Shown here: piece by piece, positions 26,950 through 50,933 of the stretch
How positions within the stretch are numbered: position 1 is the stretch's first letter
Layout: each line of letters begins with the position of its first letter
NCBI GenBank assembly: GCA_031390755.1
Contig: JANMTS010000060.1
Location: 700 to 64,699, forward strand
Direction: 5' to 3'
Length of the DNA: 64,000 nt
From: Holophagales bacterium
GTDB lineage: Bacteria > Acidobacteriota > Thermoanaerobaculia > Multivoradales > UBA5704
Made by a program: the position numbers and the translations under genes
Notes under the pieces: generated by a model
Seen by the model: the letters and a program-made list of their open reading frames with translations, nothing else
What the model was told of the DNA's origin: nothing
The model's database searches: none

Positions 26950-26958
26950 GAGAGGACG

Positions 26959-27405
26959 ATGGCGCGCCGAAGCACCGATCCGTACGCGGGCTACCGCTTC
27001 CTCCTCCAGCTCGGGGTGCTGCCCGCGGCCGGCTTTGCCGAGTGCACCGGCCTCCAGGCCGAGACCAAGGTCTTGGACTACGTCGAGGGCGGGCGCAACG
27101 GCACGACCCTCAAGTTCCCGGAGGCCACCGGCTACTCCAACGTCGTGCTCAAGCGGGGGGTCGGCCTCTCGAACGAGCTTCTCTACTGGCAGCTCGACGC
27201 CGCGCACGGGCTCTTCGTTCTCAACCCCCGGCTGGTCGTCAACACCGCCATCGTGCTCCAGGACGAGCGCGGCCGGCCCGTCCGCTTCTGGCTGCTGAAG
27301 CGGGCCTTTCCGGTCAAGTGGACAGGACCGGACCTCAAGGCGGGGGCGAACGAGGTCGCCATCGAGTCGCTGGAGCTCGCCCATGAGGGGATCGTGCCGC
27401 TATGA
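26959..27405 (+). CDS. tail tube protein 2 (paralog)
   Basis: MARRSTDPYAGYRFLLQLGVLPAAGFAECTGLQAE...YSNVVLKRGV...ESLELAHEG. Confidence 0.9.
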   Translation: MARRSTDPYAGYRFLLQLGVLPAAGFAECTGLQAETKVLDYVEGGRNGTTLKFPEATGYSNVVLKRGVGLSNELLYWQLDAAHGLFVLNPRLVVNTAIVLQDERGRPVRFWLLKRAFPVKWTGPDLKAGANEVAIESLELAHEGIVPL

Positions 27406-31796: not shown

Positions 31797-31814
31797 CCCG
31801 CCGGAGACGACGCC

Positions 31815-32456: not shown

Positions 32457-32461
32457 GGGAG

Positions 32462-34188: not shown

Positions 34189-34194
34189 AAGGAG

Positions 34195-34479
34195 ATGCCC
34201 TTGCCCCCCGCAGCGCGCGTCGGAGATCCCAGCGGCCATCCCGGAGTCGTCACCGGCCCGGGCATCCCCACGGTGCTCATCGCCGGGATGCCGGCGGCCA
34301 CGCTCGGCGACCTCCACACCTGCTCGTTTCCGCCGCCGGCCGTGCATCCGCCCACCCCGATCGCCAAGGGGAGCGCCACGGTGCTCATCGGCGGCAAGCC
34401 GGCGGCGCGGGTGGGCGACATGGCCGGCTGCGGCGCGCCGATCGTGGCCGGCGCCTTCACCGTGCTGATCGGAGGCTAG
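34195..34479 (+). CDS. PAAR domain spike-tip protein
   Basis: 'PAARVGD...GMPAATLGDLHTC...GKPAARVGDMAGCG'. The start may be TTG 34201, given the GGAG at 34191-34194. Confidence 0.9.
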   Translation: MPLPPAARVGDPSGHPGVVTGPGIPTVLIAGMPAATLGDLHTCSFPPPAVHPPTPIAKGSATVLIGGKPAARVGDMAGCGAPIVAGAFTVLIGG

Positions 34480-34488
34480 GGAGACATC

Positions 34489-34881
34489 ATGAGCAAGGAT
34501 TTCCTCGGCAGGGGTTGGACGTTCCCGGTCCAGGTGGACGCCAACGGCGCGATCGCGCTGTCCGTGCAGGAAGAGGACGTGCGCGAGGCGATCCGCGTGA
34601 TCCTCCTCACCAGCCGCGGCGAGCGGCCGATGCGGCCCGACTTCGGCGCCGGTCTCCACGACTATGTGTTCGAGACGCTGAGCGCCACCAACGTCGGCGC
34701 GATCCAGGCGGAGGTCCGGCGCGCCCTGGTCGACTGGGAGCCGCGCATCGAGCTGCTGTCGGTGGACGCCCGGCCCGACTCCGGCGACGTCGGCCGCTTC
34801 CTGCTCGACGTGGACTACAGGGTGCGCTCCACGAACACGCGCTTCAACCTGGTGTTCCCCTTCTATCTGGGAGGCCGGTGA
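34489..34881 (+). CDS. GPW/gp25-family baseplate wedge protein
   Basis: 'FLGRGWTFPV...EDVREAIRVILLTSRGERPMRPDFGAGLHDYVFE'. Confidence 0.9.
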   Translation: MSKDFLGRGWTFPVQVDANGAIALSVQEEDVREAIRVILLTSRGERPMRPDFGAGLHDYVFETLSATNVGAIQAEVRRALVDWEPRIELLSVDARPDSGDVGRFLLDVDYRVRSTNTRFNLVFPFYLGGR

Positions 34882-37805: not shown

Positions 37806-37819
37806 AGGAGAGCGAAGCC

Positions 37820-39547
37820 ATGGCCCTGCCTCTGCCCGTGCTGGACGACCGGACCTTCGAGGAGATGGTGGCCGAGGCCTTGCGCCTGGCGCCGCAGCGG
37901 GCGCCGGCCTGGACCGACCACAATCTCAGCGATCCGGGCGTCACCCTGGTCGAGCTGTTCGCCTGGCTCACCGAGATGCAGCGCTATCGCCTCGACCGGC
38001 TGCGCGAGGAGAGTCTGGTCAAGCTCCTGGGCCTGGTCGGCATGCAGCCGCGGCCCGCCACCCCGGCGCGAGCCGCGGTCGCGGTGTCGGCCCCGCAGAC
38101 GACGTTCCTGCCGCTCGGCACCCCCCTCCGGCTCGGCGGCGTCTCCTTCAGCACGGAGGAGGACATCACCGTGGTGCCGGCGAGACTCGCGAGGATCCTC
38201 ACCTCCTCGCGCGCCGGCCAGGTGGACGAGACCGCCGCCAACGACGGCGAAGGTCTCTCCTTCTTCGCCTTCGGTCCCGATGCCGAGGCGGGGAGCCGCC
38301 TCTATCTCGGCTTCAGCGAGCCTCTTCCCGCCGAGGTGGGCTTCAGCCTCGACCTCGTCCTCTACGAGGGCTACCCTGCCGCGCGCGGCGAGCATGGCGA
38401 GGAGCCGCCGAGGATCACGCCTTCCGCCCGCATCGAGTGGGAGGCGCTCTCCGGCGGCGGCTGGCTCCCGCTGGAGATCCTCGGCGACGAGACCGTGATG
38501 CTGTCGCTGCCCGGGCGCCTGCGCTTCCGCCTCGCCTCGCCGCTGGATGCCGCCGAGCTGCCGCCGATCCCCGGCGAGCTCTCCTGGCTGCGGGCCACGG
38601 TGGTGGAGCCCGGCTACGAGCTGCCGCCGCGCCTGGCCGCCGTGCGCTGGCAGACGGTGCCGGCGGTCGAAGCGACCGACGAGAACGCCGCGGCCGACGA
38701 GGACGCCGAGGACGACCCGGGCAGCCTCGGTCTGCGGACCGGCGCCGGCAACGTGGACCGCGGCGCCGCCGTCGCTCTCGCGGGGCCGCTCCCGGGCGGC
38801 GAGGGCCTGGTCTTCTCGCTGCCCGCGGCGGCCACCGGGGGCACGGACCGCGAGACCGTGGACGCGGCCCGCCTGCGCCTGCGCCGGGACAAGCTCACCC
38901 TCTGGCGCGCGGTCAACGATGCCGACTTCGAGGCCCTGGCGAAGGCCACGCCGGGGCTGCGCGTCGCCCGCACCTGGTCCCTGTCCGGGCAGTCCCTGTC
39001 CGGGCTCACACCGGCGACTCCAACCGCATCGGCGACGGTCACCGTGATCGTCGTGCCGTTCAGCGAGGCCGCCAAGCCCGTGCCCAGCTCCGGCTTCCTC
39101 CGCACCGTCCGCTGCCATCTCGACCGCCATCGCCTGCTCACCACGCAGGTCCGCGTCGTGGGGCCGGACTACGTGGAGGTCGGCGTCGAGGCCGGTCTCG
39201 TCCTCCAGGCCGGAGCCGGCCGGGACGCCGTGCTCGCCCGGGCCGCCGCGGCCCTCGGCGTCTTTCTCCATCCCCTGCAAGGAGGCCCTGCCGGGGAGGG
39301 ATGGCCCTTCGGCCGGCCGGTCTATCTGTCGGAGGTCTACGCGGCCCTGGAGGCCGTGGCCGGAGTGGACGCCGTCGAGCGGGTGGCCGTCTCCGCCGGA
39401 GCTGGGAGCGGCGTCTCCCGCGACGAGCGGGGGAATCTGCTCATCCCGTCCACCAGTCTGGTCTTCTCCGGCGCGCACCGGCTCACCGTCGTGGAGCGGG
39501 AAGGCGCTCTCTGCCGGGTGAAGCCGGCCCCGGGAGCCCGGTCATGA
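37820..39547 (+). CDS. baseplate J-like protein 2 (Afp12-like)
   Basis: '[21 protein letters not shown]...[20 protein letters not shown]' and a C-terminal '[28 protein letters not shown]'. Confidence 0.75.
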
Positions 39548-41712
39548 CGTGCGGCCAGGACAGCCCGTCCGTCCTCCGGCTGCGCGACGCCGCCGACTGG
39601 GAGCGCGGTTTCGCGTTCCGCCTCCGGATCTCCGCCGCCGGGCTCGACCTGGAGCCGAAGAAGGAGCACGCGCTCTCCCCGCTCGTCCAGGAGATGCCGG
39701 ACGCCACCTTCCTCGGCCACGTCGCCCTGGCCCGCGGGCGGTGCCAGGAGGTCTTCGTGCTGGAGTCGCCGACCGGCTCCCTGCTCCGGTTCGACGGCGG
39801 CCGCTTCGAGCACCTCGCCACCCCGGGCGCGGCGCTCCAGGCGCCCACGCTCCTCGCCTGGTTCCCCGGGCGCCTGTTCGTGGCCGGCGGCCCGAGCCCG
39901 CAACGCATGGTGGCCCTGGACGAAGCCACGTCGAGGGCCTTGTGGGCGGTGACCGACCAGCGCGACGGCCGCGGCCAGCCGCTTCCGCCCGGCGCTTCGC
40001 CGTTCCTCCCCGCCGCCCTGGCGGGCGACCGGACGCGGCAGCGGCTCTACGCCCTGATCCCCCTCCAGGCGAGCCAGGCCGCGAAAGCCCCCGACATCCA
40101 GCTCGCAATCGCCGTCTTCGGCCCGGGCGGCCGGCTTCTGCGCCTCCTGACCCCTCCCGGTCTCCGCCTCGACGAGGCCGCCCTGGCCAAGACCGATCTC
40201 GCCGTGGCCCCGGACGGCACGCTCTACATCCTGGACTCCCTGGGCCGGCGGGTCTTCGCCTTCGATCCCGAGAAGGACCGTCTGCGCAGCTTTCCGGTCA
40301 ACGAGCGCCCGAAGCCGGACACGATGACCGGCGTCGGCACCGGCACCGGCACCGGCACCGAAACCGAGACCTTCCGCATCCAGCCCGCCGGCCTGGCCGT
40401 CGGCGACGATGGCGTCCTCTACCTGGGAGACCTGCGGCGCGTGCCTCCGGCCGGCCAGGACGACGACCGGCTCATCCACCGTTTCGACGCCGACGGCAAG
40501 TATCTCGGACCGGTGGCCGGCTACCGCGGACCGGTGTCGGCGCTCGCCGTGGGGCCGGGCTCGCGCATCGTGCTCTTCGACCCCGGCACCCGGCACGCCG
40601 GCCAGGAGCCGGCCCTGTCCGAGCGGCGCCTGCGCGTGCTCCTCCAGCGCGACTCCCTGGACGGCGCGCGCGGCGTCTACTACTCGCCGCCGCTCGACAG
40701 CCGGGAGACCGGCATGCTCTGGCACAAGCTCACCCTTCCCGGCGCCCGGATCCCCGGCCACAGCCAGGTCCAGATCTCGTGGCGGGCGATCACGGACCCG
40801 GAGGAGGACGGCGGCGAGGACGAGCGGAAGATCTACGAAGACCTCCTGGAAGCCGGGGACAAGGTGGGCCTCGACCGGCTCCGCTGGTCCCCGCCGCTCG
40901 TGAACGTCCGCGACGCCCTCGTCCGGGAGGCGCCCGCGCGCTATCTCCGCGTGCGGGTGCTGCTGATGGGTGCGGGCCAGGATGCCCCTCAGGTGCCGGG
41001 CCTCGAAGCCTGGTTCCCGCGCACGTCCCTGCTGCGCCACCTGCCCGCGGTCTACCAGGAGATCCGCAGCGGCCACAATTTCCTGGAGCGCTTCCTGGCC
41101 CTGTTCGAGACCCTGTTCACCAGCATCGACCGGCAGATCGACGACCTGCCGGACCTGTTCGATCCGGACACCACCCCCTCCGGCTTCCTGCCCTGGCTCT
41201 CCTCGTGGCTCGCGCTCACCCCGGACGAAGCCTGGCCGGAGGAGCGCCGCCGCGCCCTGCTGCGCGACGCGCACGAGCTCTACCGGCTGCGGGGCACCCG
41301 CGAGGGTCTGGCGCGCCTGATCGAGACCCTCACCGGCGCCCGGCCGCTGATCGTCGAGCCGTTCCAGCTCGCGTGCGCCGAAGCCCCCGAGATGAAGACG
41401 CTGCTGGCGAGGCTCCATTGCCCGGACCCGTTCTGCTTCTCCGTCCTGCTCCGGCCCTTCCAGGTGAGCAGCGACGACGAGCTGCGCGCCATCCGCCGCC
41501 TCGTGGAAGACGAGTCCCCAGCCCACACCTCGCCCTGCGTACGGCGCCTCGAGCCCCTGGCGCAGCTCGACCGGCACACCTACCTGGACGTCAACACCTA
41601 TCTCAAGCTCCCCGCGGCGCGGCTCGACACCGGAACCGTCCTGGGGCGCGACTCGCTCCTGGGCGGCGCCGAGCCTCCGGACGAGCTGGCAACCGACGAA
41701 GGAGAACCGTGA
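39544..41712 (+). CDS. NHL-like beta-propeller fused to phage tail protein I-type domain
   Basis: ATG 39544 (ATGA overlap). NHL-like '[18 protein letters not shown]' and 'DGVLYLGDL'. C-terminal 'LPAVYQE...[46 protein letters not shown]...[12 protein letters not shown]', as in P2 gpI-type tail proteins. Confidence 0.7.
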
Positions 41713-43388
41713 TGGCCAACCCGACCCCGACCGCGGAGAGCAATCTGCTCCGCCTGGAAAAGAACAACTATTTCCCAGGCAAGCTGCTGACCAGCCGCGA
41801 CTGCCAGGATGAGCAGGACTTCCACAACGAGAAGCGCCGCCTGCTCAGCCGGCTCACCCTCGGCCGCGGCGTGGTCCGCGGCCTCAAGACCAGCCTCGAC
41901 GCCGCGGCCGGCCCCCTGGGCATCCGCGTCACCCGCGGCATGGCCATCGACGCCTGGGGCCGGGAGATCGTCGTCGACGCCGACCAGAGCCGCAGCCTGA
42001 ACGTGCTGCTGCCTGAGCTCGCGGCAGGGACGTACACCCTGCGCCTGGCCTACGACCAGATGCTCCGCGAGCCCGTGCCCTCGCCCGATTCGACCTGCGA
42101 CGAGACCTGCCAGAACAACCGGATCCGCGAGATGTTTGTGCTCAAGCTCGGCACCGGCATCGTCGAGCCGCGGCCGGACACCTGGAGCACCACGGTCACC
42201 CTCGTCGAAACGCCGACCTGGAAGCTCGTCCGCAAGACGCCGCGATGGATCAGGACGGGGGAGACGGCCGACGTCTGGCTGGGCCTCCTCGGCCAGAACG
42301 GCCTTGCCGTGCCGGCCGGCACCACCGTCGACGTGACCGAAAAGCTCACCGGCCTGACGCCGGCCCAGGCCACCTTCAAGCTGACCCAGGACGACCGGAT
42401 CAAGACCTATTCCGTGAAGGCCGGCACTCCCGGCACCACGGCCACCATCACCGCCGCGGTCACCCCGGGGTTTCCCACCGTGGAGCTGACCAGCAGCCTG
42501 CGGATCATCGCCGGATCGGTCGCGGACCGCCTCGTCAAGGCGTTCTTCGAAGAGCAGGGGGAGTACCAGGATCCGCCCGCCAACCCGGATGTTCCCCTGG
42601 CCACCGTCGTCGTCGAAGGCTCCGGCGACAGCCGCCGGATCGCGAGCGTCACTCTCTTCCCGGGCCAGCAGTTCGTCTACGGCAACGACATCCTTTTCGA
42701 CGTCCTGACCCTCCTGGAGCAGCGGACCGGAGCCACCGGCCCCAAGGGCGATCCGGGAGCCCAGGGGAACCCTGGACCCAAGGGAGATCCGGGACCGCAG
42801 GGACCGAAGGGCGATCCGGGAGGCTCCGGCCCGGGGAACCAGGGACCTCCGGGACCGGTGGGGCCTCCGGGGCCTCGCGGCCCGGCCGGCGCTCAGGGGC
42901 CTGCGGGACCGGCGGGACCCGGGCGTGTCAACTTCGGCATCGAGGAGATCACCCTGACCGGCCAGCTCACGACCTACAAGGTCGCCTCCTCGGGATTCCT
43001 GCGCCCGAACTTCTGCGTCATGGTGGCGCCCAAGGTCCAGCCCAACCTGGCGACGCTCCCCCCCGACACCGTGCCCCTGTTCGTCTTCGGCGAGACCTTC
43101 CCCACCGACCCCAAGCCCCTCTTTGTCCGGGCGTTCATCCCCGTCGACTCCTCGGGAGCGTTCTACATCCAGATCTATTCGGAGACCGTGCAGCCGAAGA
43201 AGGTCCGCGTCTCCTGGATCGCCGTCGAAGGCCAGTTCGTCGGCCCCGGCCCCCTGCCGCCGGAGCTGGCCAACCTCGGCCCCGCCGCCGCGCCCACCGC
43301 ACCGGCTGCACCGGCCGCGAAGCCCAGGACCGCCAAGAAGACCGCCAAGGCCGGGACGCCCCGCAAGCCGCGGAGCCGGAAGGCCTGA
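41712..43388 (+). CDS. tail fibre-like protein with collagen-like G-X-Y tract
   Basis: ATG 41712 overlaps the upstream TGA. About 65 residues of G-X-Y ([28 protein letters not shown]...) are encoded at 42729-42923. Lys/Arg-rich C-terminal tail. Confidence 0.65.
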
Positions 43389-43403: not shown

Positions 43404-46400
43404 ATGGCGCGGCATGCTCCAGCGAAGTCCGGTCCGACGAAGCCCGGACCTTCCCAGCCGGGACCCCGCCCGGCTCCGGGCAAGCGCGCCCAGCATCCGG
43501 TCCTCGCCCTCCAGCAGGCCGCCGGCAACCGCGCCGTCGGCCGCCTGATCGAGGCCCGCAAGGAGGAGCGCAAATCCCGGCTCGATCCCCTGGAGCCTGA
43601 AGTCTCTCCCGAAGCCACGCCCAGGATCGCGGCCCGCGAGGCCGAAGCGGAAGCCCCGGCGAAGCAGGCCGCTCCGGTGAAGGAGCCGGCCGGGGCCGCT
43701 GTGGAACCTCCCGCTCCGGCAGCCACGCTGGCAGCCGCGCCGGCAAACGCTCCGGTGGTTGCTCCGGTGGCGGCGGCACCGGAGCCGGCCGCGGTCGAGG
43801 CGGCGCCGGCCGTGTCTGCGGAATCGGGAGGATCGGCCGCACCGGCAGTCCCGGAGGCTTCGGCAGAGCCGGCGCTGGTAGCGCCCGAAATTGCTCCCAA
43901 AACTGCGCCCGAGGCGGCATCCGCAGCCCCGCCACCTACTGGCGAGGGAGCCCCCCCTGCCCCAGCGCCGGAAGCCGGGGCCGCCGCACCGGCTCCGGAG
44001 CCTGCCGGTGAGCAGGCTCCGACCTCTCCGGAGCAGGATCCGGCTTTTCAGGCTGTCGTGGCCCGCATCGAAGGCGTCGCTCGCCAGAAGAAAAGCCACG
44101 TCCCCGCCCGCGCCGCCGCCGCGAAAGCCCAGGCCGCCGCCGTCGATCCGCCCAACGCCGCTTCCGCCCATGCGGCCGGCGCCCAGGTCGGCAAGATGGA
44201 CGCCCAGCAGCCGCGCCCCTTCGACCGGGCCGCCTTCAAGGCCGCCCTGCTCGCGAAGGTCGCGTCCGTCACGCCTCAGACCCTCGAAGCGGCCGACGAA
44301 TTCAAGTCGAGCGGCAAGGCCGGCGACATCAAGACCGCGGTCACCGCCCGGGTGGCCGCAGGCAAGGACCAGGCCCAGGGTGCCATCCAGAAGGCCGCCA
44401 CCGAGACCCCCTCCCCGGGCGGCTTCCATCCCCGGCCCGCCTCCGCCCTGGCTCCCCCCGATCCCGGCCCGCCGCCCCCGGACCTCGCCGCCGGCCAGGC
44501 GGCTCCCAAGCCCAAATCCGAAGCCGAGATCGAAGCCCCTCTCGCCGCCTCCAGCCAGCGGCTCGACGAGCCGATGACCGCCGCGGGCGTCACCGAGGCC
44601 CAGCTCGAACGCTCCAACGAGCCTGCCTTCCAGGACGCCCTCCAGGCGAAGCGCGAGGCCCAGGACAACGCCAGTCAGGCTCCGGCCGCCTACCGGGCCG
44701 CTGAAAAGGGCACCCTCGCCGTGGCCGCCGGACAGGCGCGGACCTCGGCCCGGGACCGGACGGCGGCCATGCACGGAGCCCGCGGCACGCTCCTCGCCCA
44801 GGTCGCCGGCCGGCAGCTCGGAGCCAAGGCCGCCGACGAGCAGCGCCGCGCCGAGGTCGCGCGCCGCATCGAGGGGATGTACCAGACCACCAGAGGCGAG
44901 GTGGAGGCCCGTCTCTCTCTTCTCGACCGGCAGGTGCAGGCGATCTTCGACCGCGGAGCCGGCGCCGCCCGCCGCGCCTTCGAAGACCACGTCGCGCACC
45001 GCATGGCGGCCTACAAGGAGAAACGCTACAAAGGGGTCAAGGGCTTGCTGCGCTGGGGAAAGGACAAGCTCTTCGGCATGCCCTCCGAGGTCAACGCCTT
45101 CTACGTCGAGGGACGCGACCTCTATGTCCGGACGATGGACGGAACCCTCGACGAGATCGCGACCACCGTCGAGTCCGGTCTCCTCCAGGCCAAGGCGCTC
45201 ATCGCCGTCGGCCGGCAGCAGACCGAGACCTACGTCGCGGGGCTCCCCGGCGACCTCCAGCAGGTCGGCCGGGAAGCGGCCGACGGCATCCAGGCCCGGT
45301 TCGCGGCGCTGGAGCAGAGCGTCGCCGACAAGCAGGGCCAGCTCGTCGAGGATCTCGCCCGCAAGTACGCCGAAAACCTGCAGCAGGTCGACGCCCGCGT
45401 CACGGAGATGAAGGAGGCCGACCGCGGCCTCGCGGACAAGGCCGGCGAGGCTCTCGGCGGCGTCCTGCGCACTCTCGCCGAGCTCAAGGAGATGCTGTTC
45501 TCGGTCCTGGCGCGGGCGGCCGGTGTCATCGGCACCATCCTCCAGGATCCCATCGGCTTCCTGGGCCACCTGGTGGACGGCGTCCGGCTCGGCCTCTCGG
45601 GCTTCGTCTCCAACCTCGGCGAGCACCTCAAGAAAGGCGTCCTCGAATGGCTCTTCGGCGCCCTGGGAGAAGCCGGCCTCCAGATTCCCGAGAGCTTCGA
45701 CCTCAAGGGCATCCTGGGCCTCATCCTCCAGGTGCTCGGCCTCACCTACGTCAAGATTCGGGCACGCGCGGTGGCCATCGTCGGCGAGCCCGTCGTGAGC
45801 GCCCTGGAGAAGACCGCCGAGGTCTTCAAGATCCTCGTCACCGAGGGGCCGGCAGGCCTGTGGCGCTTCATCCAGGACAAGCTCGCCGAGATCAAGGAGA
45901 CCGTGCTGGAAGGCCTCAAGTCCTTCCTCATGGAAAGCGTCATCAAGGCCGGCATCACCTGGCTCCTGAGCCTGCTCAATCCGGTCGCGGCGTTCATCAA
46001 GGCCTGCAAGGCGATCTACGACATCGTGATGTTCTTCGTCACGCGCGCCGCGCAGGTCATGGCCCTGGTCTCCTCGATCCTCGACTCGATCGCAGCCATC
46101 GCCTCCGGCGCCATCGCCGAGGCTGCGGCGGCGGTGGAGAAAGCGCTAGCCAAGACCATCCCGGTCGTCATCGGCTTCCTCGCGAGCCTGCTCGGCCTGG
46201 GAGGAATCTCCGACAAGATCCGCGAGGTCATCCAGGCCATCCAGGCTCCCATCAACAAGGCCGTCGACGCGGTCATCCACCAGGCGGTCAAGACCGCCAC
46301 GGCCGTGGGCGGCCTCTTCAGCGGCGGAAAGAAGAAGGAGGAAAAGCCTGTCCCGGAGACCGGGGATCTGGAGCACGACGCGAAGGTGGCAGCGGGGTTG

Positions 46401-46964
46401 GCGGCGATCGACGTAGAGGAAGCACATTACCCCGAGACCGGTATCACTCAGGATCAAGCTGAAAGGGTCGCCGCAAAGGTGCAAGCCGGGCACCCCGTCT
46501 TTAAGTCGCTCGCAGTGGTAGATAGTGGCGAGAGCTGGGATTACGATTACGTCGCTAGTCCCGGGCGGCGCAAACGCGGCGCAAGAAAAAGTAAACAGCC
46601 TGGTAGAACGACAGCTCTCTCAGGTAGACCAGCAGAAGAGGCGGTATCGAACGCCACGGGTGTTCCATTGAATGTTGGCACTGGCAGAGATACAATCCCC
46701 GGAAGTGGGCCAGGCAGGGTAAGGTTTCCAGACCTCAAGATTTTTGGCCTCGAAGGTTCAATTATTCAGCGCGGTTCCATTATCGAGGTCAAAGATGTAA
46801 AAAGACTCCAGGGTCGTCGGCAAATCAGAGATCTGATCGCTTACGCACGTTCCAAAAGCCTTGTGATTGAAATTTACAGCGACGCCTCCATACCCTCCAG
46901 AGGAGTGATTGCCGACGCCGTTGCGACTGGCTTGGTAGTGCTCAAAGGGATACCCAAGCGATGA
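43404..46964 (+). CDS. putative eCIS payload/polymorphic-toxin-like protein (disordered N-terminus, long helical core, C-terminal PD-(D/E)xK-like module)
   Basis: N-terminal 'VLALQQAAGNRAVGRLI' motif. About 200 aa of Ala/Pro-rich low complexity. Hydrophobic helical core (GFLGHLVDGVRLGLSGF...LQVLGLTYVKIRA...). C-terminal 'RFPDLKIFGLEGSIIQRGSIIEVKDVK'. Confidence 0.6.
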   Translation: MARHAPAKSGPTKPGPSQPGPRPAPGKRAQHPVLALQQAAGNRAVGRLIEARKEERKSRLDPLEPEVSPEATPRIAAREAEAEAPAKQAAPVKEPAGAAVEPPAPAATLAAAPANAPVVAPVAAAPEPAAVEAAPAVSAESGGSAAPAVPEASAEPALVAPEIAPKTAPEAASAAPPPTGEGAPPAPAPEAGAAAPAPEPAGEQAPTSPEQDPAFQAVVARIEGVARQKKSHVPARAAAAKAQAAAVDPPNAASAHAAGAQVGKMDAQQPRPFDRAAFKAALLAKVASVTPQTLEAADEFKSSGKAGDIKTAVTARVAAGKDQAQGAIQKAATETPSPGGFHPRPASALAPPDPGPPPPDLAAGQAAPKPKSEAEIEAPLAASSQRLDEPMTAAGVTEAQLERSNEPAFQDALQAKREAQDNASQAPAAYRAAEKGTLAVAAGQARTSARDRTAAMHGARGTLLAQVAGRQLGAKAADEQRRAEVARRIEGMYQTTRGEVEARLSLLDRQVQAIFDRGAGAARRAFEDHVAHRMAAYKEKRYKGVKGLLRWGKDKLFGMPSEVNAFYVEGRDLYVRTMDGTLDEIATTVESGLLQAKALIAVGRQQTETYVAGLPGDLQQVGREAADGIQARFAALEQSVADKQGQLVEDLARKYAENLQQVDARVTEMKEADRGLADKAGEALGGVLRTLAELKEMLFSVLARAAGVIGTILQDPIGFLGHLVDGVRLGLSGFVSNLGEHLKKGVLEWLFGALGEAGLQIPESFDLKGILGLILQVLGLTYVKIRARAVAIVGEPVVSALEKTAEVFKILVTEGPAGLWRFIQDKLAEIKETVLEGLKSFLMESVIKAGITWLLSLLNPVAAFIKACKAIYDIVMFFVTRAAQVMALVSSILDSIAAIASGAIAEAAAAVEKALAKTIPVVIGFLASLLGLGGISDKIREVIQAIQAPINKAVDAVIHQAVKTATAVGGLFSGGKKKEEKPVPETGDLEHDAKVAAGLAAIDVEEAHYPETGITQDQAERVAAKVQAGHPVFKSLAVVDSGESWDYDYVASPGRRKRGARKSKQPGRTTALSGRPAEEAVSNATGVPLNVGTGRDTIPGSGPGRVRFPDLKIFGLEGSIIQRGSIIEVKDVKRLQGRRQIRDLIAYARSKSLVIEIYSDASIPSRGVIADAVATGLVVLKGIPKR

Positions 46965-47785
46965 ACAGAAAGTCCGTGGTCTCCATCGATTTGGAAGTTT
47001 GCCTCGGGAGGTGCCTGTTGGACGAGGAGCTAATCGGCAAGGTACAAGAGATTCTTCTCCGGTATGCTGTGGGATGGGTTCCCGTGATGCGCCTCTGGCC
47101 TCCAGAGCACGGCGACAAGAACCTTGATCTTGGCGCCGACAGATCTCTTTTCGATCTGACAAAAAGAGAGATCGAGGAAGCAGCGGCTAATACGGGATCA
47201 AGACTGACCGGGCTCGTAGAGTTTCGTGGAGCAACACAAGGCCTGGCAGTGATTATGAGTGTCGACGAGAAGACCTTCTTTCGAGTGGGTGACAATTGGC
47301 TCTGGGGCAACCGTATTGCTCTTCAGATTCGGAAGCAAAAGATTGGAAGCATCAATTCGGTTAAGTGGGCGGGATCGGTGTTCGAGGAACTCTGCGCGGC
47401 AGTATCGCCTTGGTATGGGCGAGCAAGTTCTACTCAAGAGTACGAGGCGAAGAACATCGACCGCAGCGACGGCGTTCGTGCCGTTGGGGTCAACGTTGCT
47501 CGTGCTCTTCCGGGCCTCTATTGGCTTAATTTCTTCGGGAAACCTTATGTTGATCACATCGGTCGAGAACAAATCTTAAGCGCACCGGCGGAAACAGTTC
47601 GAGCAATCGACGATGGCATCTTGCTTCGCCTCATGGAGTATCCAGGGACGTGGGATTCAGCCGAGTATCGGCTCGGCGAGGAAAAAGTTCTGGAGCATTT
47701 GAGTCCGCGATACTTCTTCTCGAAAACAAATCCAGCCCGCATTCATAGTGCACCGTCTTTTGATCTTGTTGGGTATTGTGGGTGA
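46961..47785 (+). CDS. putative cognate immunity protein (DUF3396/Imm52-like by recollection)
   Basis: ATGA overlap with the toxin stop. Same low-GC patch. 274 aa. 'LPGLYWLNFFGKPYVDHIGREQIL...IDDGILLRL' resembles the C-terminal motif of type VI immunity family proteins as I remember it. Confidence 0.45.
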   Translation: MNRKSVVSIDLEVCLGRCLLDEELIGKVQEILLRYAVGWVPVMRLWPPEHGDKNLDLGADRSLFDLTKREIEEAAANTGSRLTGLVEFRGATQGLAVIMSVDEKTFFRVGDNWLWGNRIALQIRKQKIGSINSVKWAGSVFEELCAAVSPWYGRASSTQEYEAKNIDRSDGVRAVGVNVARALPGLYWLNFFGKPYVDHIGREQILSAPAETVRAIDDGILLRLMEYPGTWDSAEYRLGEEKVLEHLSPRYFFSKTNPARIHSAPSFDLVGYCG

Positions 47786-47993
47786 GGAGGGGGGCGCGCG
47801 TATGTTCAGCCTTTTACACGTCGTTCCTTCACGCTGGCGCCGTGTTTGGCGACAATTAGAATGCGAGAGGGGTCAGGCCCGACGCGCGCAATCTCGTTCC
47901 GGGTGATCCACCACAGGAACTGAAGAGCCTCGTTGATCGCCGCTTCCTTCCGAGTGGTTCAGTTCCTCGCAGGCGAGGACAGAGGCCGGCCCC

Positions 47994-49565
47994 TCACAGC
48001 TTCACCACTTCGATCCGCCGACCCCGGTGCTCGATTTCCCTGCGCGAGCAGCGCTCAGGCAAGGGCGGAGCCTGCGACCGGCCATCGAAGAGCACGAGCG
48101 CTCCCTGATCGAGTCCAAGCCGATCGAGGTAGGCGCTCAATTGTTCCAGGCCTTCCGACAGAGGATCGGGCCTGCCATCCCTCCAGACCTTGAGCTCCAG
48201 AGCCCAACGCTCAGCTCCCCCTGAATGCGGCCAGCGCACGCACAGATCGATGCGTCCGCTCCCCACCGCATATTCGCGGTCGATGAACCCCCCACCGTTG
48301 ACCACCCGCTGCAGGTAGGCCATGAAGACGAGTTGGGCAGCGGCTTCCGCGTAGGGCTGACGCTCCAGAAAGAACTCGGCGTGCTGGCACCAGAACGTGC
48401 GGAACTCGTCGAGCAGCACATCCCGCAGGAGCCTGCCGTCCGCGCCGACAAAAGCGACCTGCGGCAGCGGAAGCGAGCGCTGCACCACCGCCGTCAGTGC
48501 CCGGGGGATGATCTCCCGGTAGATCGGATTGGCGATCTCCAGACCGGCGGAACGCGCGACCAGGCCGAGATCCTCGACAAACTGCACGTCGTCGTCGAGC
48601 ACATCCGGCGACAGAAGCTCGCCGGCCAGGATGGGCTCGATGATGCGCCGGACCCGCGGCTCCCGCAGGCGATCCACCAGGGAATCGAGGTGGGTGTCGC
48701 GCCGCGCGATCAGCAGCTCCTTGGCCTTTTCCACATGCGCCGCCTCGATCGGCAGCGTCAGGTCGGTCACCAGGGTCTCGACCGCCTGGCGGGCCAGGGC
48801 GTTGACCAGCCAGGGTTGCCCGCGGGTGAGATCCCAGGCCAGGGCCTTCGCTTCCTCGGTGAAGGCCTGCCCCGTCTCCGCGGTGTGCTGGTCGTAGAGC
48901 TCTTGAATCTCCCCCGCGGTGAAGTTCCGCAGAGTCAGAGACTCGACCTTGATGTTGAACGGGGAAGACGTTCCCAGGCTGTCCGTATCCGGGCGCAGGC
49001 TGGCACGGTAGTCCCGGACGTCCCGCAGGCCGATCAGCGCGACCGACTGGGGAAAGCGCCGGGGACGGTGCGTGTAGCCGGCCCGGAGCTGCCGCAGCAC
49101 TGACAGGAGCGTCTCGTCGTACAAAGCGTCGATTTCGTCCAGGAAGAGAACCACGGGACGCGAGGAGCGCTCGCTCCAGGCGGCGAGGTAGGCGTCCAAC
49201 AAGCTCTCCGCCTCGATTCCCGCGAGCTCCCCCACGGGCACGGGCCGCATCTCGGCCGGCAGCACCTGCGCCGCGCGCTCGATGTCGCGAAGCACGGCCC
49301 TCACTCCCCGGTCGATGTCACCACCGGCAGGCTGCCCCTTTTCGCAGGTGGCGTGGAGCGCCACATACCGGCCCTCGGCCGTCAGATGGTGCGCGAGCGC
49401 CTCGCAGCACGTGGTCTTGCCCGTCTGGCGCGGAGCGTGGAGCACGAAGTAGAAATGCCGGTCGATCAGATCCCGGACGCCAGGGAGTCGACGCTCGGGC
49501 GGCAGCATGTAGTGCCGGGATGGATCGCAGGGACCAGCGGTGTTGAAGAAGCGCATCGGCGTCAT
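47994..49565 (-). CDS. AAA-ATPase-like + PD-(D/E)xK nuclease-like domain protein
   Basis: Start MTPMRFFNTAGPC (alternative M at 49556). 'HAPRQTGKTT' P-loop, 'VLFLDEIDAL'. C-terminal 'GSGRIDLCVRW...RWALELKVW' nuclease-like motif. Confidence 0.75.
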   Translation of the reverse strand: MTPMRFFNTAGPCDPSRHYMLPPERRLPGVRDLIDRHFYFVLHAPRQTGKTTCCEALAHHLTAEGRYVALHATCEKGQPAGGDIDRGVRAVLRDIERAAQVLPAEMRPVPVGELAGIEAESLLDAYLAAWSERSSRPVVLFLDEIDALYDETLLSVLRQLRAGYTHRPRRFPQSVALIGLRDVRDYRASLRPDTDSLGTSSPFNIKVESLTLRNFTAGEIQELYDQHTAETGQAFTEEAKALAWDLTRGQPWLVNALARQAVETLVTDLTLPIEAAHVEKAKELLIARRDTHLDSLVDRLREPRVRRIIEPILAGELLSPDVLDDDVQFVEDLGLVARSAGLEIANPIYREIIPRALTAVVQRSLPLPQVAFVGADGRLLRDVLLDEFRTFWCQHAEFFLERQPYAEAAAQLVFMAYLQRVVNGGGFIDREYAVGSGRIDLCVRWPHSGGAERWALELKVWRDGRPDPLSEGLEQLSAYLDRLGLDQGALVLFDGRSQAPPLPERCSRREIEHRGRRIEVVKL

Positions 49566-49620
49566 TGTATCCGTGTGCGCCTCAGCCCAGGCCCGCAACG
49601 CCGCAATCCACACCCGGCAG

Positions 49621-49888
49621 TACGTTGAAGCGCCCCTCTCGCACATTGAGCACTACTTGCTCTACGTTGAAGTCTTCCCGGTATCTTCAACATAGAAGTC
49701 TCTGTGAATTGAGGATAGGAGGACGGCGGTTCCGCCCTACCTGGGCGCTATTGAAGCGCCCAAACCGGATATTGAGTATACGTCGCTGTACATTGAGGAT
49801 GGAGAGAGCGCTTCAACATACAGGACGCTGTACATTGAGGATGCGTAGCTGTACATTGAAGCGCCAAAGGGCGCTTCAATGTACAGCT
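49621..49888. repeat. AT-rich spacer with at least 11 copies of a (T)AYRTTGARG motif and a perfect 19-bp inverted repeat
   Basis: Motif copies near 49621, 49642, 49663, 49683(inv), 49704, 49747, 49768, 49786, 49808(inv), 49827 and 49847. The palindrome is agctgtacattgaagcgcc-aaag-ggcgcttcaatgtacagct at 49847-49888. Confidence 0.75.
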
Positions 49889-49964
49889 CGGTGGCGGTGA
49901 TCCAGGAGATGTAGGGAATGACCTCCCAGCGCCGGGGTGTCATTCACCGCGCTTGCGCGGCGGT

Positions 49965-50933
49965 TCAAGCGATCGCGGAGCCGGCTGCCCGGAGCCAGGT
50001 GATGACCTGCGCGTCCACGCCGACGCCCTCGGCGAGCCCGCAGCTCACACCGGCCGGGAAGCCGACGTGGCCGCCGCGGACCCAGGCGACCCGCAGGAGC
50101 GGCGAGGCGCCGGCCAGGGCCGGGCGGACCGACCGCGAGGGGACCATCGGGTCTCCTTCCGAGTTGAGCAGGAGCGCGGGAATGCGGAGGTTCGGGAGCA
50201 CCGGGCCGGCGCTCGCCCGGGCGTAGTAGTCGGGCGCGTCCCGGAAGCCGTAGCGGGGCGCCACGACCCGCTCGTCCCAGTCGCGGATGCGGCGCAGCTC
50301 GGCGAGGCGCTCCACCGGGAACGGCACCGGCCGGCCCACGGCGGCGGCCCGCGCGGCCACGGCGCGGTAGAGATCCGCCAGGCTTCTCAGGAGATACCAG
50401 CGGTAGAGGCCGACGCCGGGGCTGTCGATCTCCGCCTCCGACAGGGCGAGGTCGATCGGTGAGCAGACCGCGGCCACGGCCTTCACCCGGGGATCGAGAG
50501 GCTCGGCGCCGAGGCGCAGCGTCACGTTGCCCCCGAGCGAGTAGCCAACCACGTAGATCGTGCGGAAGCGGGCCAGGTCCGGGCTCGCGAGCGCGGCGTG
50601 GAGATCCTCGGTCTGGCCGGCGTGGTAGTAGTCCTCGCCCAGGCGGTCCGCGCCGCGCAGGCTCATCCGCAGGCAGGAGAGACCGGCCGCGTCCGCGGCG
50701 TCCGCGCCGCGCACCATGTAGTGGCTGCTGACGGAGCCGCCCAGGCCGTGGACCAGGAGCAGCAGCTCGTCTCCGGGATGCTCGCGCATACGGCCGGTGA
50801 GGCGGACCGGGCCGACGGCGGGGTCGTCCACCATCGTCTCCCACGAACGCGATTCCGGGGCGAGCCGGGGCCGGAAGGCGTGGGCCAGCCGGGGGCTCAG
50901 CGTCCAGAGATGCGGAAGGATGTCGGGCCGCAC
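49965..50933 (-). CDS. alpha/beta hydrolase (YheT-like)
   Basis: 'LLLLVHGLGGS', nucleophile elbow 'GYSLGGN', and a C-terminal 'GGHVGF'. Confidence 0.8.
   Translation of the reverse strand: MRPDILPHLWTLSPRLAHAFRPRLAPESRSWETMVDDPAVGPVRLTGRMREHPGDELLLLVHGLGGSVSSHYMVRGADAADAAGLSCLRMSLRGADRLGEDYYHAGQTEDLHAALASPDLARFRTIYVVGYSLGGNVTLRLGAEPLDPRVKAVAAVCSPIDLALSEAEIDSPGVGLYRWYLLRSLADLYRAVAARAAAVGRPVPFPVERLAELRRIRDWDERVVAPRYGFRDAPDYYARASAGPVLPNLRIPALLLNSEGDPMVPSRSVRPALAGASPLLRVAWVRGGHVGFPAGVSCGLAEGVGVDAQVITWLRAAGSAIA

What the first reader, a model, noticed from the sequence alone, without database searches (positions are those of the whole stretch)
46480..47900. Sharp low-GC cassette spanning exactly the toxin C-terminus, the immunity gene and the downstream spacer
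G+C drops abruptly near 46.5 kb. I counted 42% in 46741-46800 and 52% in 47161-47220, against 60% at 45001-45060 (itself at the low end for the upstream coding lines) and roughly 80% by eye at 44401-44460. It recovers in the next gene at about 48.0 kb.

The boundary falls inside the 1186-aa ORF, just before the basic linker and the PD-(D/E)xK-like module. The low-GC stretch includes the 274-aa overlapping (ATGA) downstream gene.

This is the signature of C-terminal toxin/immunity cassette replacement seen in polymorphic toxin systems (Rhs, CDI, T6SS effectors), here applied to an eCIS payload. The 274-aa protein resembles, from memory, DUF3396/Imm52-type immunity proteins (WLNFFG...IDDGILLRL). 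I cannot verify that here.
Basis: partly seen in the sequence, partly recalled or inferred. Interest (0 to 1): 0.7.

Follow-up and report, generated by a model that had tools for sequence, protein, structure and literature searches.

The report
Swapped toxin-immunity cassette on injection-system effector
The last gene of a phage-tail-like injection system encodes a large effector whose nuclease tip and partner antidote gene were swapped in from foreign, lower-GC DNA, a well-documented example of a known way bacteria diversify their weapons.

Summary
The window is 70.1% G+C. The best-fitting low-GC block is 46405-47875 at 53.5%, the lowest stretch in the window (about 4.5 SD below the mean). 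Third-codon-position GC falls from about 0.9 to 0.47 in the toxin tip and 0.55 in the 274-aa gene.

The 1186-aa ORF is the last gene of a contractile injection system (CIS) operon. Its body has orthologues in at least 121 genomes from many phyla, and their C-termini fall into 45 unrelated groups (deaminases, HNH, AHH, EndA-like and others).

The closest relative (L083) has the same operon and the same downstream flank but carries AHH plus Imm11. Nucleotide homology breaks at about 46550 and resumes at 49989.

The window's last 128 aa form a Tox-REase-7-like PD-(D/E)xK domain. It is 65% identical to the tip of an Rhs protein in another organism. The 274-aa protein follows such tips in 7 of 9 contexts examined, and its model has the Imm52/TsiV (DUF3396) immunity fold.

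Two corrections. The acquired block starts about 70 codons upstream of the toxin, in a conserved pre-toxin adaptor. The replaced segment runs on to 49988 and includes an extra AAA/PD-(D/E)xK gene.

This is a new member of a known kind.

The parts
43404..46964 (+). 1186-aa CIS effector and last gene of the operon. It has a disordered Ala/Pro-rich N-terminus, a helical and hydrophobic tape-measure-like body, a pre-toxin adaptor, a basic linker and a nuclease tip.
   Evidence: ORF and translation. Orthologues occur in at least 121 genomes. Some orthologues carry an N-terminal eCIS_core/DUF4157 domain. It follows Baseplate_J and CIS13-like genes.
43503..43538 (+). N-terminal motif LALQQAAGNRAV (aa 34-45) inside the disordered region. 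It is a candidate loading signal; that role is inferred.
   Evidence: The motif is present in 11 of 35 homologues. The loading role is inferred from AlgoCIS cargo work, in which the disordered N-terminal domain is needed for loading.
44001..46328 (+). Conserved body, aa about 200-975. It is helical, with hydrophobic segments at aa 861-906 and 914-940.
   Evidence: It is 45-85% identical across phyla. There is a weak PHROG 1272 tape-measure hit at aa 678-968, E 1.1e-3. GC3 is 0.87.
46329..46565 (+). Pre-toxin adaptor subdomain, aa 976-1054, ending in WDYDYVASPG. It is conserved in a subset of orthologues but is already low in GC3 and saturated at synonymous sites. It is the likely crossover arm.
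   Evidence: It is shared with 15 loci at 38-64% identity. GC3 is 0.68. Third-position identity to L083 drops to 0.38-0.51 from codon 981. L004 breaks at 46309 and has a different adaptor.
46566..46613 (+). Basic linker (RRKRGARKSKQPGR) at the junction between the conserved and variable parts.
   Evidence: Translation. Equivalent Lys/Arg-rich linkers follow ASPG in L003, L011, L025, L068 and L079. The DNA alignment diverges right after the ASPG codons.
46578..46961 (+). C-terminal toxin domain (aa 1059-1186), Tox-REase-7-like PD-(D/E)xK nuclease. Catalytic candidates are E1078, D1110, E1128, K1130 and Q1140.
   Evidence: Pfam Tox-REase-7, E 1.5e-4, 22.4 bits, below the 25-bit cut-off. There are 121 relatives, mostly at the C-termini of their proteins. 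36 of 63 relatives match Tox-REase-7. The invariant columns are, and the residue numbering. It is 65% identical to the Rhs tip in L001. GC3 is 0.47.
46961..47785 (+). 274-aa cognate immunity protein with an Imm52/TsiV (DUF3396)-like fold. It is translationally coupled to the toxin gene by an ATGA overlap.
   Evidence: The family has 38 proteins and no Pfam domain. A toxin-tip homologue lies immediately upstream in 7 of 9 contexts. The model has pLDDT 91.8. Foldseek gives probability 1.0 to 4rho, 7drg, 9oz0 and 6jdp. GC3 is 0.55.
47994..49646 (-). 550-aa AAA_16/AAA_22 plus PDDEXK_9 protein. It lies inside the segment that is absent from the closest relatives. It is probably a separate insertion and its function is not established.
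   Evidence: Pfam. No PADLOC hit. Absent from all fetched loci. GC3 is 0.83. It lies between the homology break points.
49647..49964 (.). Low-GC (54%) spacer holding an array of hairpin repeats built on TGTACATTGAAG/CTTCAATGTACA. It is the right edge of the replaced segment.
   Evidence: Repeat families D1, D2, D5, D10 and I1-I5. The motif gives 4 matches against 0.09 expected. Sequence.
49965..50933 (-). Conserved right flank, an alpha/beta-hydrolase gene. Homology to relatives resumes at 49989.
   Evidence: blastn to L083 and L004 resumes at 49989 and 49981. The L083 homologue is annotated Abhydrolase_1.
22546..43388 (+). Upstream CIS operon: two sheath genes, tube proteins, AAA ATPase, tube/LysM, VgrG-related, base_V, PAAR, gp25-like, two Baseplate_J genes and a CIS13-like fibre.

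Best explanation
**What it is.** The 1186-aa protein is a cargo effector of a contractile injection system, and it is built like a polymorphic toxin. It has a disordered N-terminus with a conserved motif, a conserved helical and hydrophobic tape-measure-like body, and a short pre-toxin adaptor ending in WDYDYVASPG. A basic linker and an exchangeable C-terminal toxin complete it.

**The toxin and its partner.** In this genome the toxin is a Tox-REase-7-like PD-(D/E)xK nuclease. The overlapping 274-aa gene encodes its cognate immunity protein, a distant member of the Imm52/TsiV fold class. That protein protects the producer by binding the nuclease.

**How it got there.** The adaptor, toxin and immunity block was brought in by recombination from a foreign, lower-GC source. 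The left crossover was at the end of the conserved body, at about 46310-46400. It replaced whatever cassette was there before. Close relatives carry AHH plus Imm11 or other pairs at the same site.

**Shown here:**
- the compositional break;
- the synteny break points;
- the hyper-variability of the tips and partner genes;
- the sharing of this tip with Rhs and other scaffolds;
- the linkage between tip and immunity gene;
- the immunity fold;
- the conserved catalytic motifs.

**Inferred:**
- loading into the tube lumen by the operon's AAA ATPase;
- ejection on contraction;
- membrane insertion by the hydrophobic segment;
- DNA cleavage in the target;
- neutralisation of the nuclease by direct binding.
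For: **Composition.**
- The low-GC block has 53.5% G+C against 70.1% for the window, about 4.5 SD below the mean.
- GC3 is 0.47 and 0.55 in the tip and immunity gene, against about 0.9 in host genes.

**Synteny.**
- Window and L083 are collinear over 33989-46549 and 49989-55404 at 76-89% nucleotide identity, with unrelated content between.
- L004 shows the same pattern.
- L083 carries AHH plus Imm11 at this site.

**Polymorphism.**
- There are 45 tip clusters among 80 orthologues and 56 partner-gene clusters among 68.
- The Pfam toxin domains found include SNAD4/APOBEC-like deaminases, Endonuclea_NS_2, HNH, PPPDE, RNase A, Ntox21 and GH-E.
- The tip has lower GC3 than the body in 71 of 78 loci.

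**The tip as a travelling module.**
- There are 121 relatives, mostly at the C-termini of proteins of 62-2574 aa.
- They sit on RHS, PT-HINT, PAAR, PT-TG and TcdB/SpvB scaffolds, and 36 of 63 match Tox-REase-7.
- The tip is 65% identical to the Rhs tip in L001.
- E, PD, ExK and Q are conserved.

**Immunity.**
- A toxin-tip homologue lies directly upstream in 7 of 9 contexts.
- The fold matches PA0821 and TsiT. These are immunity proteins for PD-(D/E)xK effectors.

**Crossover position.**
- Third-position identity to L083 falls from 0.7-0.95 to 0.38-0.51 from codon 981, while amino-acid identity stays at 0.6-0.68.
- Adaptor identity is flat across relatives, at 63%, 64% and 60%. This does not follow the body tree.

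**CIS context.**
Against: - Nothing here shows toxicity, DNase activity, neutralisation by the 274-aa protein or loading into particles.
- The Pfam Tox-REase-7 score is below the curated cut-off (22.4 against 25 bits).
- The fold search of the toxin model against PDB was inconclusive. The best restriction-endonuclease-fold hits were MspJI and Card1 at E 0.16-0.29.
- No donor was found. No tape-measure-like effector carrying this same tip turned up among the 121 representatives. The nearest cassette (L001) has only a 343-nt alignable stretch at 64% nucleotide identity, inside the immunity gene.
- Lower GC3 in the tips is seen even in low-GC cyanobacteria. Part of the signal is therefore a general AT bias of these modules rather than a record of one donor's composition.
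- The replaced segment also contains an unrelated gene, so more than one event may have shaped it.
Confidence: 0.85

Rival explanations
1. The protein is the structural tape measure of the particle, or a self-directed developmental effector like Tme of Streptomyces davawensis. It would act on the producer population, through eDNA release or regulated death, rather than as a weapon against other cells. The immunity gene would only prevent premature self-damage.
For: - There is a weak tape-measure hit (PHROG 1272, E 1.1e-3) and there are hydrophobic helices.
- Tme has the same general layout and a nuclease tip with a developmental role.
- No other gene in the operon was positively identified as a tape measure.
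Against: - The gene lies at the 3' end, after the fibre-like gene, not upstream of the tube-initiator and spike genes as tme does.
- An unannotated 540-aa ORF (30174-31796) occupies the usual tape-measure position.
- The extreme diversity of tips with matched partner genes is typical of inter-strain conflict.
- Tme was not reported to have an immunity partner.
Confidence: 0.2
2. The toxin and immunity pair works mainly as an addiction or defence module that happens to be fused to the effector gene. It would stabilise the locus or abort phage infection, and would not be a delivered payload.
For: - The two genes form a tight pair with an ATGA overlap.
- The 274-aa protein gives weak PADLOC hits to the candidate defence family PDC-M20B, E 4.7e-4.
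- The neighbouring AAA/PD-(D/E)xK gene looks like a defence gene.
- Orphan immunity homologues exist.
Against: - The toxin is not a free-standing gene. It is fused in frame to a 1050-aa body conserved in CIS loci.
- Its relatives mostly sit at the C-termini of proteins that, where a domain is recognised, carry secretion scaffolds (RHS, PAAR, PT-HINT), which is the polymorphic-toxin pattern.
- The PADLOC hits are weak and partial.
Confidence: 0.08
3. The low GC does not record horizontal acquisition. It reflects a local mutational or selective bias, for example low expression, relaxed codon adaptation or regulatory AT-richness, on a vertically inherited C-terminus.
For: Tips have lower GC3 than bodies in 71 of 78 loci. 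These include low-GC hosts, in which a lower-GC donor is unlikely every time.
Against: - The closest relatives have unrelated sequences at the same site, with sharp homology break points.
- The same tip and immunity pair occurs on an Rhs protein in another organism.
- Synonymous sites become saturated exactly where GC3 drops.
Confidence: 0.05

Closest known systems
Polymorphic toxin systems delivered by PVC/eCIS (Zhang, de Souza, Anantharaman, Iyer & Aravind 2012, PMC3482391; Geller et al. 2021, PMC8213781)
   Same: [quoted passage not shown]
- The genes lie at the 3' end of phage-tail-like operons.
[quoted passage not shown]
- Some pairs have immunity genes.
   Different: - The window protein has no PVC-metallopeptidase/DUF4157 domain: no Pfam hit and no HExxH. 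Some orthologues do have one.
- The 2012 table lists Tox-REase-7 for T2SS, T5SS, T6SS and T7SS but not for PVC, with ImmHEAT, Imm23 and Imm54 as partners. Here it sits on a CIS effector with an Imm52/TsiV-fold partner.
- Both papers stress that most eCIS toxins lack immunity genes. This one has a clear immunity gene.
Tape-measure-related CIS effectors Tme (S. davawensis; Nagakubo et al. 2024, PMC11126660) and Sle1-type effectors (Nagakubo et al. 2026, PMC13277306)
   Same: - They are large, largely helical or disordered proteins with coiled-coil and transmembrane segments.
- They show remote tape-measure similarity and carry a variable C-terminal functional domain, a nuclease in Tme.
- One Sle1-type protein (M. 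eburnea RS14790/RS14785) forms an effector-immunity pair.
- The authors point out that the C-terminus can be exchanged.
   Different: - tme lies immediately upstream of the baseplate genes and has DUF4157. Sle1 lies upstream of the sheath gene and pairs with Sle2.
- The window gene is last in the operon, after a CIS13-like gene, and has no DUF4157.
- Neither paper, in the sections read, describes in-situ allele replacement between close relatives or a conserved pre-toxin adaptor.
Rhs, CdiA and T6SS C-terminal toxin/immunity cassette exchange
   Same: - Homology breaks sharply at a conserved pre-toxin motif and is followed by an unrelated toxin and an immediately adjacent immunity gene.
- The cassette has a lower G+C than the host.
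- The very same toxin and immunity pair is found on an Rhs protein.
   Different: - The delivery scaffold is a CIS tube-lumen-type effector, not an Rhs shell, a CdiA filament or a PAAR/VgrG fusion.
- The junction motif is WDYDYVASPG plus a basic linker rather than PxxxxDPxGL or VENN.
- No orphan cassettes lie downstream in this window.
TseT-TsiT (Tox-REase-5/Imm52) and TseV-TsiV (VRR-Nuc/DUF3396) T6SS pairs
   Same: - A PD-(D/E)xK nuclease effector is neutralised by an immunity protein of about 240-360 aa of the same fold class. Foldseek gives probability 1.0 and TM-scores of 0.39-0.60. Hespanhol et al. 2022 describe the TseV-TsiV pairs.
- In L088 a homologue of the window immunity gene lies in the same gene array as a Tox-REase-5/Imm52 pair.
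   Different: - The toxin belongs to the REase-7 subfamily, not REase-5 or VRR-Nuc.
- The immunity protein fails both Pfam models: TsiV scores 13.9 bits against a cut-off of 25, and Imm52 gives no hit.
- A profile search of PDB sequences finds nothing.
- Delivery is by a CIS, not a T6SS.

Membership tests
Polymorphic toxin system | Homologues share a conserved N-terminal or central part but carry unrelated C-terminal toxin domains | tested here: met
   80 orthologues give 45 tip clusters. The tips carry diverse Pfam toxin domains. The closest relative has AHH instead.
Polymorphic toxin system | The same toxin domain occurs at the C-terminus of different trafficking scaffolds | tested here: met
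   There are 121 relatives, mostly C-terminal. They sit on RHS, PT-HINT, PAAR, PT-TG and TcdB/SpvB scaffolds. The tip is 65% identical to an Rhs tip.
Polymorphic toxin system | A cognate immunity gene lies immediately downstream and co-varies with the toxin | tested here: met
   The genes overlap by ATGA. A toxin-tip homologue lies directly upstream of immunity homologues in 7 of 9 contexts. Partner genes differ wherever the tips differ.
Polymorphic toxin system | Displaced or orphan toxin-tip and immunity modules lie downstream | tested here: not met
   tblastn of the adaptor, tip and immunity sequences against the window finds only the genes themselves. This feature is common but not obligatory. 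An array with a degenerate copy exists in L088.
Polymorphic toxin system | Toxicity of the tip and specific neutralisation by the partner protein | not testable with these tools
   Needs expression and rescue assays.
Tox-REase-7 (PF15649) | Score at or above the Pfam gathering threshold (25 bits) | tested here: not met
   The full protein scores 18.5 bits and the tip alone 22.4 bits, E 1.5e-4. However, 36 of 63 relatives of the tip match the family, the best at 4.5e-10.
Tox-REase-7 (PF15649) | Signature motifs GxxxE, hxD, ExK and Q (Zhang et al. 2012) | tested here: met
   G1074-E1078, P1109-D1110, E1128-x-K1130 and Q1140 are present. E, ExK and Q are invariant among 26 relatives and PD is nearly invariant, at 90% or more.
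Tox-REase-7 (PF15649) | Restriction-endonuclease (PD-(D/E)xK) fold | tested here: inconclusive
   The model has pLDDT 90.8 and an alpha-beta-beta-beta-alpha-beta order of elements. No PDB match has E below 0.1. MspJI and Card1 appear at E 0.16-0.29 with TM-score about 0.4.
Imm52 (PF15579) / TsiV-DUF3396 (PF11876) | Score at or above the Pfam gathering threshold | tested here: not met
   TsiV scores 13.9 bits (E 0.035) against a cut-off of 25, and Imm52 gives no hit. 8 of 32 family members touch TsiV, the best at 1e-3. A profile search of PDB sequences finds nothing.
Imm52 (PF15579) / TsiV-DUF3396 (PF11876) | Same three-dimensional fold as solved members | tested here: met
   The model has pLDDT 91.8. 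The top six Foldseek hits have probability 1.0: 4rho, 7drg (PA0821), 9oz0 and 6jdp (TsiT/PA3908, Imm52). E-values run from 7e-8 to 1.7e-4 and TM-scores from 0.39 to 0.60.
Imm52 (PF15579) / TsiV-DUF3396 (PF11876) | Encoded next to a PD-(D/E)xK nuclease effector | tested here: met
.
DUF4157/Tme-like CIS effector | N-terminal DUF4157 (eCIS_core, HExxH) domain | tested here: not met
   The window protein has no Pfam hit and no HExxH. Seven of its 35 listed homologues do have PF13699.
DUF4157/Tme-like CIS effector | Remote homology to phage tape-measure proteins, with coiled-coil and transmembrane segments | tested here: inconclusive
   PHROG 1272 gives E 1.1e-3 and 17.7 bits at aa 678-968. Hydrophobic segments lie at aa 861-940.
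DUF4157/Tme-like CIS effector | Gene located immediately upstream of the tube-initiator and spike genes (as for tme) | tested here: not met
   The gene is the last in the operon, after the CIS13-like gene.
DUF4157/Tme-like CIS effector | Physically loaded into and ejected from CIS particles | not testable with these tools
   Needs particle purification and mass spectrometry.
Contractile injection system locus (eCIS-type gene set) | Sheath, tube, AAA ATPase, VgrG/PAAR spike, gp25-like and Baseplate_J genes in one operon | tested here: met
   Whether the particles are released or act inside the cell was not tested.

The most novel reading that the evidence does not exclude
The conserved helical body and its adaptor of about 80 aa (ending in WDYDYVASPG and followed by a basic linker) may form a distinct, pan-phylum polymorphic-toxin delivery platform for contractile injection systems. 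In this reading the adaptor is an undescribed pre-toxin module. It would serve as the homologous-recombination arm for cassette exchange and as the processing or translocation signal that frees the toxin in the target. It would be the functional counterpart of the VENN and PxxxxDPxGL junctions of CdiA and Rhs. No Pfam family covered it in the scans run here. It is shared by only about a fifth of the orthologues, which suggests that several interchangeable adaptor types exist.
Probability: 0.35. Interest if true: 0.55.

Novelty: new member of a known kind. Interest (0 to 1): 0.4.

Why it matters
- **A natural allele series.** The same operon and the same flanks carry different toxin and immunity pairs in close relatives. 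This fixes to within a few codons where a CIS effector can be cut and re-tipped. That is the information needed to engineer programmable CIS cargo.
- **A new delivery route for this toxin family.** The case adds CIS delivery to the known routes for Tox-REase-7-type nucleases.
- **An unannotated immunity family.** It defines a small family of 38 proteins with the Imm52/TsiV fold that current Pfam models miss.
- **Evidence of an antibacterial role.** A clear immunity gene next to a CIS effector supports an antibacterial or kin-discriminating role for this CIS lineage in Acidobacteriota-like bacteria. Earlier surveys remarked that most eCIS toxins lack such a gene.

None of this overturns current understanding.

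Tried and rejected
1. **Word-index homology search with the 128-aa tip.** It found nothing. The index seems to miss short domains at the ends of long proteins. The exhaustive HMMER search replaced it.
2. **Profile search of PDB sequences with the immunity alignment.** It gave only a designed helical bundle at E 4.7. The relationship became visible only by fold comparison.
3. **Fold search of the toxin model.** No significant PDB match.
4. **First attempt to fold the toxin with alignment A6.** It was repeated as A7.
5. **A donor CIS effector carrying the same tip.** None of the 121 representatives contains the body or the adaptor.
6. **Orphan cassettes in the window.** None found.
7. **CIS baseplate or fibre genes upstream of the orthologues in the fetched loci.** Few were visible, because only about 4 kb of upstream sequence was held. 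Context was taken instead from L083 and L084.
8. **BLASTP of the window protein against L003.** It gave only a short N-terminal match, probably because of composition-based adjustment. Translation showed full-length homology.
9. **Defence-system scan of the AAA/PDDEXK_9 gene.** No hit.
10. **Rfam scan of 46000-50200.** Nothing meaningful.
11. **Promoter and terminator scan.** The counts did not exceed shuffled expectation.
12. **An amino-acid-composition explanation for the GC drop.** Considered and rejected, because the shift is in GC3.

Full report
**1. The observation**

The window has 70.1% G+C. A two-boundary likelihood fit between 44000 and 49500 places a low-GC block at 46405-47875 with 53.5% G+C. 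The sequence upstream has 70.0% and the sequence downstream 67.3%. Among all 1400-bp windows this block is the minimum: 0.534 against a mean of 0.701 and an SD of 0.037. The 200-bp profile shows the same shape.

The drop is not an amino-acid effect. GC3 (G+C at third codon positions) by gene or segment is as follows:

| Gene or segment | GC3 |
|---|---|
| Neighbouring host genes | 0.90-0.93 |
| Body of the 1186-aa ORF | 0.87 |
| aa 981-1054 of that ORF | 0.68 |
| Last 132 aa of that ORF | 0.47 |
| 274-aa gene | 0.55 |
| Minus-strand gene 47994-49646 | 0.83 |
| Hydrolase gene beyond it | 0.93 |

**2. Context**

The genes from 22546 to 43388 on the plus strand form a contractile injection system operon. 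Its components are:
- two sheath genes and two tube-family genes;
- an AAA ATPase with a winged-helix domain;
- a tube/LysM protein;
- a VgrG-related protein, a base_V spike and a PAAR protein;
- a gp25-like protein and two Baseplate_J proteins;
- a 1279-aa CIS13-like protein with a collagen-like stretch.

The 1186-aa ORF (43404-46964) is the last gene of the operon.

The nearest relatives by nucleotide identity and synteny are Acidobacteriota metagenome-assembled genomes (Holophagales, Thermoanaerobaculia) and one metagenome contig.

**3. The body is conserved and the tip is not**

A scan of one genome per species found 121 relatives of aa 501-1000. They come from Acidobacteriota, Cyanobacteriota, Actinomycetota, Chloroflexota, Pseudomonadota, Nitrospirota and other phyla, at 43-85% identity.

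In each locus the ORF runs on for 47-873 aa beyond the conserved part. These extensions fall into 45 sequence clusters among 80 loci. The window's extension is a singleton.

The extensions carry many different Pfam toxin domains:
- SNAD4/APOBEC-like deaminases;
- Endonuclea_NS_2;
- HNH;
- PPPDE;
- CdiA-type RNase A;
- Ntox21;
- GH-E;
- GmrSD_C.

A plus-strand ORF starts next to the stop codon in 66 of 78 loci. With the window and L083 added, these 68 downstream ORFs fall into 56 clusters.

The tips have lower GC3 than the bodies in 71 of 78 loci, with a mean difference of 0.17. The window's difference of 0.40 is among the largest.

**4. In-situ replacement**

The closest orthologue is P0161 (78% identity), on contig L083. 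It lies in the same operon and is followed by the same hydrolase and downstream genes. Its tip is AHH and the next gene is Imm11.

| Comparison | Collinear up to | Homology resumes at | Nucleotide identity | Length of unrelated stretch in the relative |
|---|---|---|---|---|
| Window vs L083 | 46549 | 49989 | 76-89% | 1141 bp |
| Window vs L004 (Holophagales MAG) | 46309 | 49981 | 76-88% | 1252 bp |

The corresponding unrelated stretch in the window is about 3.4 kb.

In the DNA alignment the sequences diverge directly after the codons for WDYDYVASPG (aa 1045-1054). On the right they rejoin inside the last codons of the hydrolase gene. L003 and L010 share the adaptor up to the same motif and then carry unrelated tips.

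**5. Where the acquired block starts**

Homology to L083 at the protein and nucleotide level runs to codon 1049. Third-position identity, however, falls from 0.7-0.95 to 0.51 at codons 981-1020 and to 0.38 at codons 1001-1060. Amino-acid identity stays at 0.60-0.68 over the same stretch, and GC3 drops there in both genomes.

The adaptor (aa 976-1058) is 63% identical to L083, 64% to L003 and 60% to a cyanobacterial orthologue. The body, by contrast, is about 85%, 78% and 55% identical to these three. L004 has a different adaptor altogether.

The simplest reading is that the adaptor travels with the toxin and immunity genes, and that the left crossover lies at the end of the hydrophobic body, at about 46310-46400. 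This agrees with the compositional change point at 46405.

**6. The toxin**

The last 128 aa have 121 relatives among 1.84 billion representative proteins. Most of them sit at the extreme C-terminus of proteins of 62-2574 aa.

Of 63 relatives scanned, 36 match Pfam Tox-REase-7. Their N-terminal parts carry RHS repeats, PT-HINT, PAAR, PT-TG and TcdB/SpvB domains. The window tip itself scores 22.4 bits, just under the 25-bit cut-off.

The signature given by Zhang et al. (GxxxE, hxD, ExK, Q) is present as G1074-E1078, P1109-D1110, E1128-K1130 and Q1140. E, ExK and Q are invariant in the alignment and PD is nearly invariant.

An AlphaFold model is confident (pLDDT 90.8) and has the expected order of helices and strands. 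It has no significant PDB neighbour. Two restriction-endonuclease-fold proteins appear only at E 0.16-0.29.

**7. The immunity protein**

The 274-aa protein belongs to a family of only 38 clusters, with no Pfam annotation. Its best relative (49% identity) lies 5 nt downstream of a 3524-aa Rhs protein. The last 127 aa of that Rhs protein are 65% identical to the window tip.

A homologue of the tip lies immediately upstream of the immunity homologue in 7 of 9 contexts examined, counting the window itself. These include two further Rhs proteins, a 301-aa protein, a contig-truncated protein of at least 1603 aa and a degenerate copy in an immunity array. The other two contexts are orphans.

Pfam gives only a sub-threshold TsiV (DUF3396) hit, and Imm52 is not hit. 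The model has pLDDT 91.8. Its six best PDB neighbours, all at probability 1.0, are BPSL2088, PA0821 and TsiT/PA3908 (the Imm52 family). TsiT appears both alone and in complex with its effector.

PA0821 and the DUF3396 proteins are immunity proteins of VRR-Nuc PD-(D/E)xK effectors. Imm52 is the listed partner of Tox-REase-5.

**8. What the body is**

The N-terminal 200 aa are Ala/Pro-rich. They carry the motif LALQQAAGNRAV, which recurs in 11 of 35 homologues. Seven of the 35 listed homologues carry DUF4157/eCIS_core there.

Residues 678-968 give a weak match to a tape-measure PHROG family, and residues 861-940 are strongly hydrophobic.

This layout matches three published descriptions:
- eCIS toxins with very long linkers;
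- the tape-measure-related effectors Tme and Sle1;
- the general cargo plan of a disordered loading region, an optional DUF4157 and a variable C-terminal domain.

The gene position differs from that of tme. Homology to Tme or Sle1 could not be tested directly.

**9. Mechanism proposed**

The following steps are inferred from those papers and from the anatomy found here:
1. The AAA ATPase loads the effector into the tube through its N-terminus.
2. Contraction ejects it.
3. The hydrophobic segment engages the target membrane.
4. The nuclease tip, possibly released at the basic linker, cleaves DNA.
5. The producer and its kin are protected by the co-translated immunity protein.

Diversity arises when the adaptor, tip and immunity block is replaced by recombination.

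**10. Known or new**

Polymorphic toxins on PVC/eCIS effectors were described in 2012. Immunity pairs at eCIS loci were described in 2021. Exchangeable tips on tape-measure-related effectors were described in 2024-2026.

The following points are new but modest:
- this particular toxin family on a CIS scaffold;
- an unannotated branch of the Imm52/TsiV fold as its partner;
- the allele series that fixes the break points;
- the adaptor as the likely crossover arm.

I rate it a new member of a known kind, with interest 0.4.

**11. Limits**

- There are no functional data.
- No donor was identified.
- Whether the particles are released from the cell is unknown.
- The extra gene and the hairpin array inside the replaced segment are unexplained.

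Noticed in passing
window 49600-49900: The low-GC spacer at the right edge of the replaced segment holds an array of hairpins built on TGTACATTGAAG/CTTCAATGTACA. It includes a perfect 19-nt inverted repeat at 49847-49865/49870-49888. The motif gives 4 matches against 0.09 expected by chance. The array lies just upstream of the start of the minus-strand AAA/PDDEXK_9 gene. It could be an operator array, a small mobile element or a recombination site. Rfam gives nothing.
   Followed up: partly
window 47994-49646 (minus strand): A 550-aa AAA_16/AAA_22 plus PDDEXK_9 protein lies inside the segment that L083 and L004 lack. Its GC3 is 0.83, much closer to the host than the toxin cassette. It has no PADLOC hit and no homologue in any fetched locus. 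It is probably a separate insertion.
   Followed up: partly
window 39549-43388: The 1279-aa CIS13-like fibre gene has a collagen-like stretch and a GC3 of only 0.68, against about 0.92 in the adjacent baseplate genes. The target-recognition gene may therefore also be compositionally foreign or mosaic.
   Followed up: no
window 30174-31796: A 540-aa ORF with no family hit lies between the AAA ATPase and the tube/LysM gene, where a tape measure is usually found. It contains a large internal duplication: two copies of ...TAYRHVETA.SVYTNLTGSR.SGPSLLSVTTIVPGAHHNG.TLRF... and two of ...WKVGDAP.FR.PVR..MTD.GVST.TS....
   Followed up: no
window 19737-21026 and 22546-26949: A sigma-54-dependent activator gene lies just upstream of the CIS operon and may be its regulator. 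The operon has two sheath-family genes (22546-24219 and 25168-26949).
   Followed up: no
L084 10001-22037 (Longimicrobium sp. MAG): Two eCIS_core (DUF4157) effectors of 1430 and 2161 aa lie in tandem after the AAA ATPase. Each is followed by a small gene of 184-190 aa with no Pfam hit. This looks like two effector-immunity pairs in one locus.
   Followed up: no
L088 298-7581 (metagenome contig): A Tox-REase-5/Imm52 pair is followed by a run of small genes. The run includes a degenerate copy of the window-type toxin tip and a homologue of the window's immunity gene. This looks like an orphan-cassette array that mixes two PD-(D/E)xK toxin subfamilies with two branches of the same immunity fold.
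   Followed up: partly
78 orthologous loci (L003-L082): Toxin tips and their partner genes have lower GC3 than the effector body even in cyanobacteria with 35-50% G+C, for example 0.51 falling to 0.18. The AT bias of these cassettes is therefore systematic and does not simply reflect one donor's composition.
   Followed up: partly
window 50941-52209 (minus strand): The DUF4440/SnoaL-like gene in the conserved right flank has a GC3 of 0.69, also well below the host norm.
   Followed up: no
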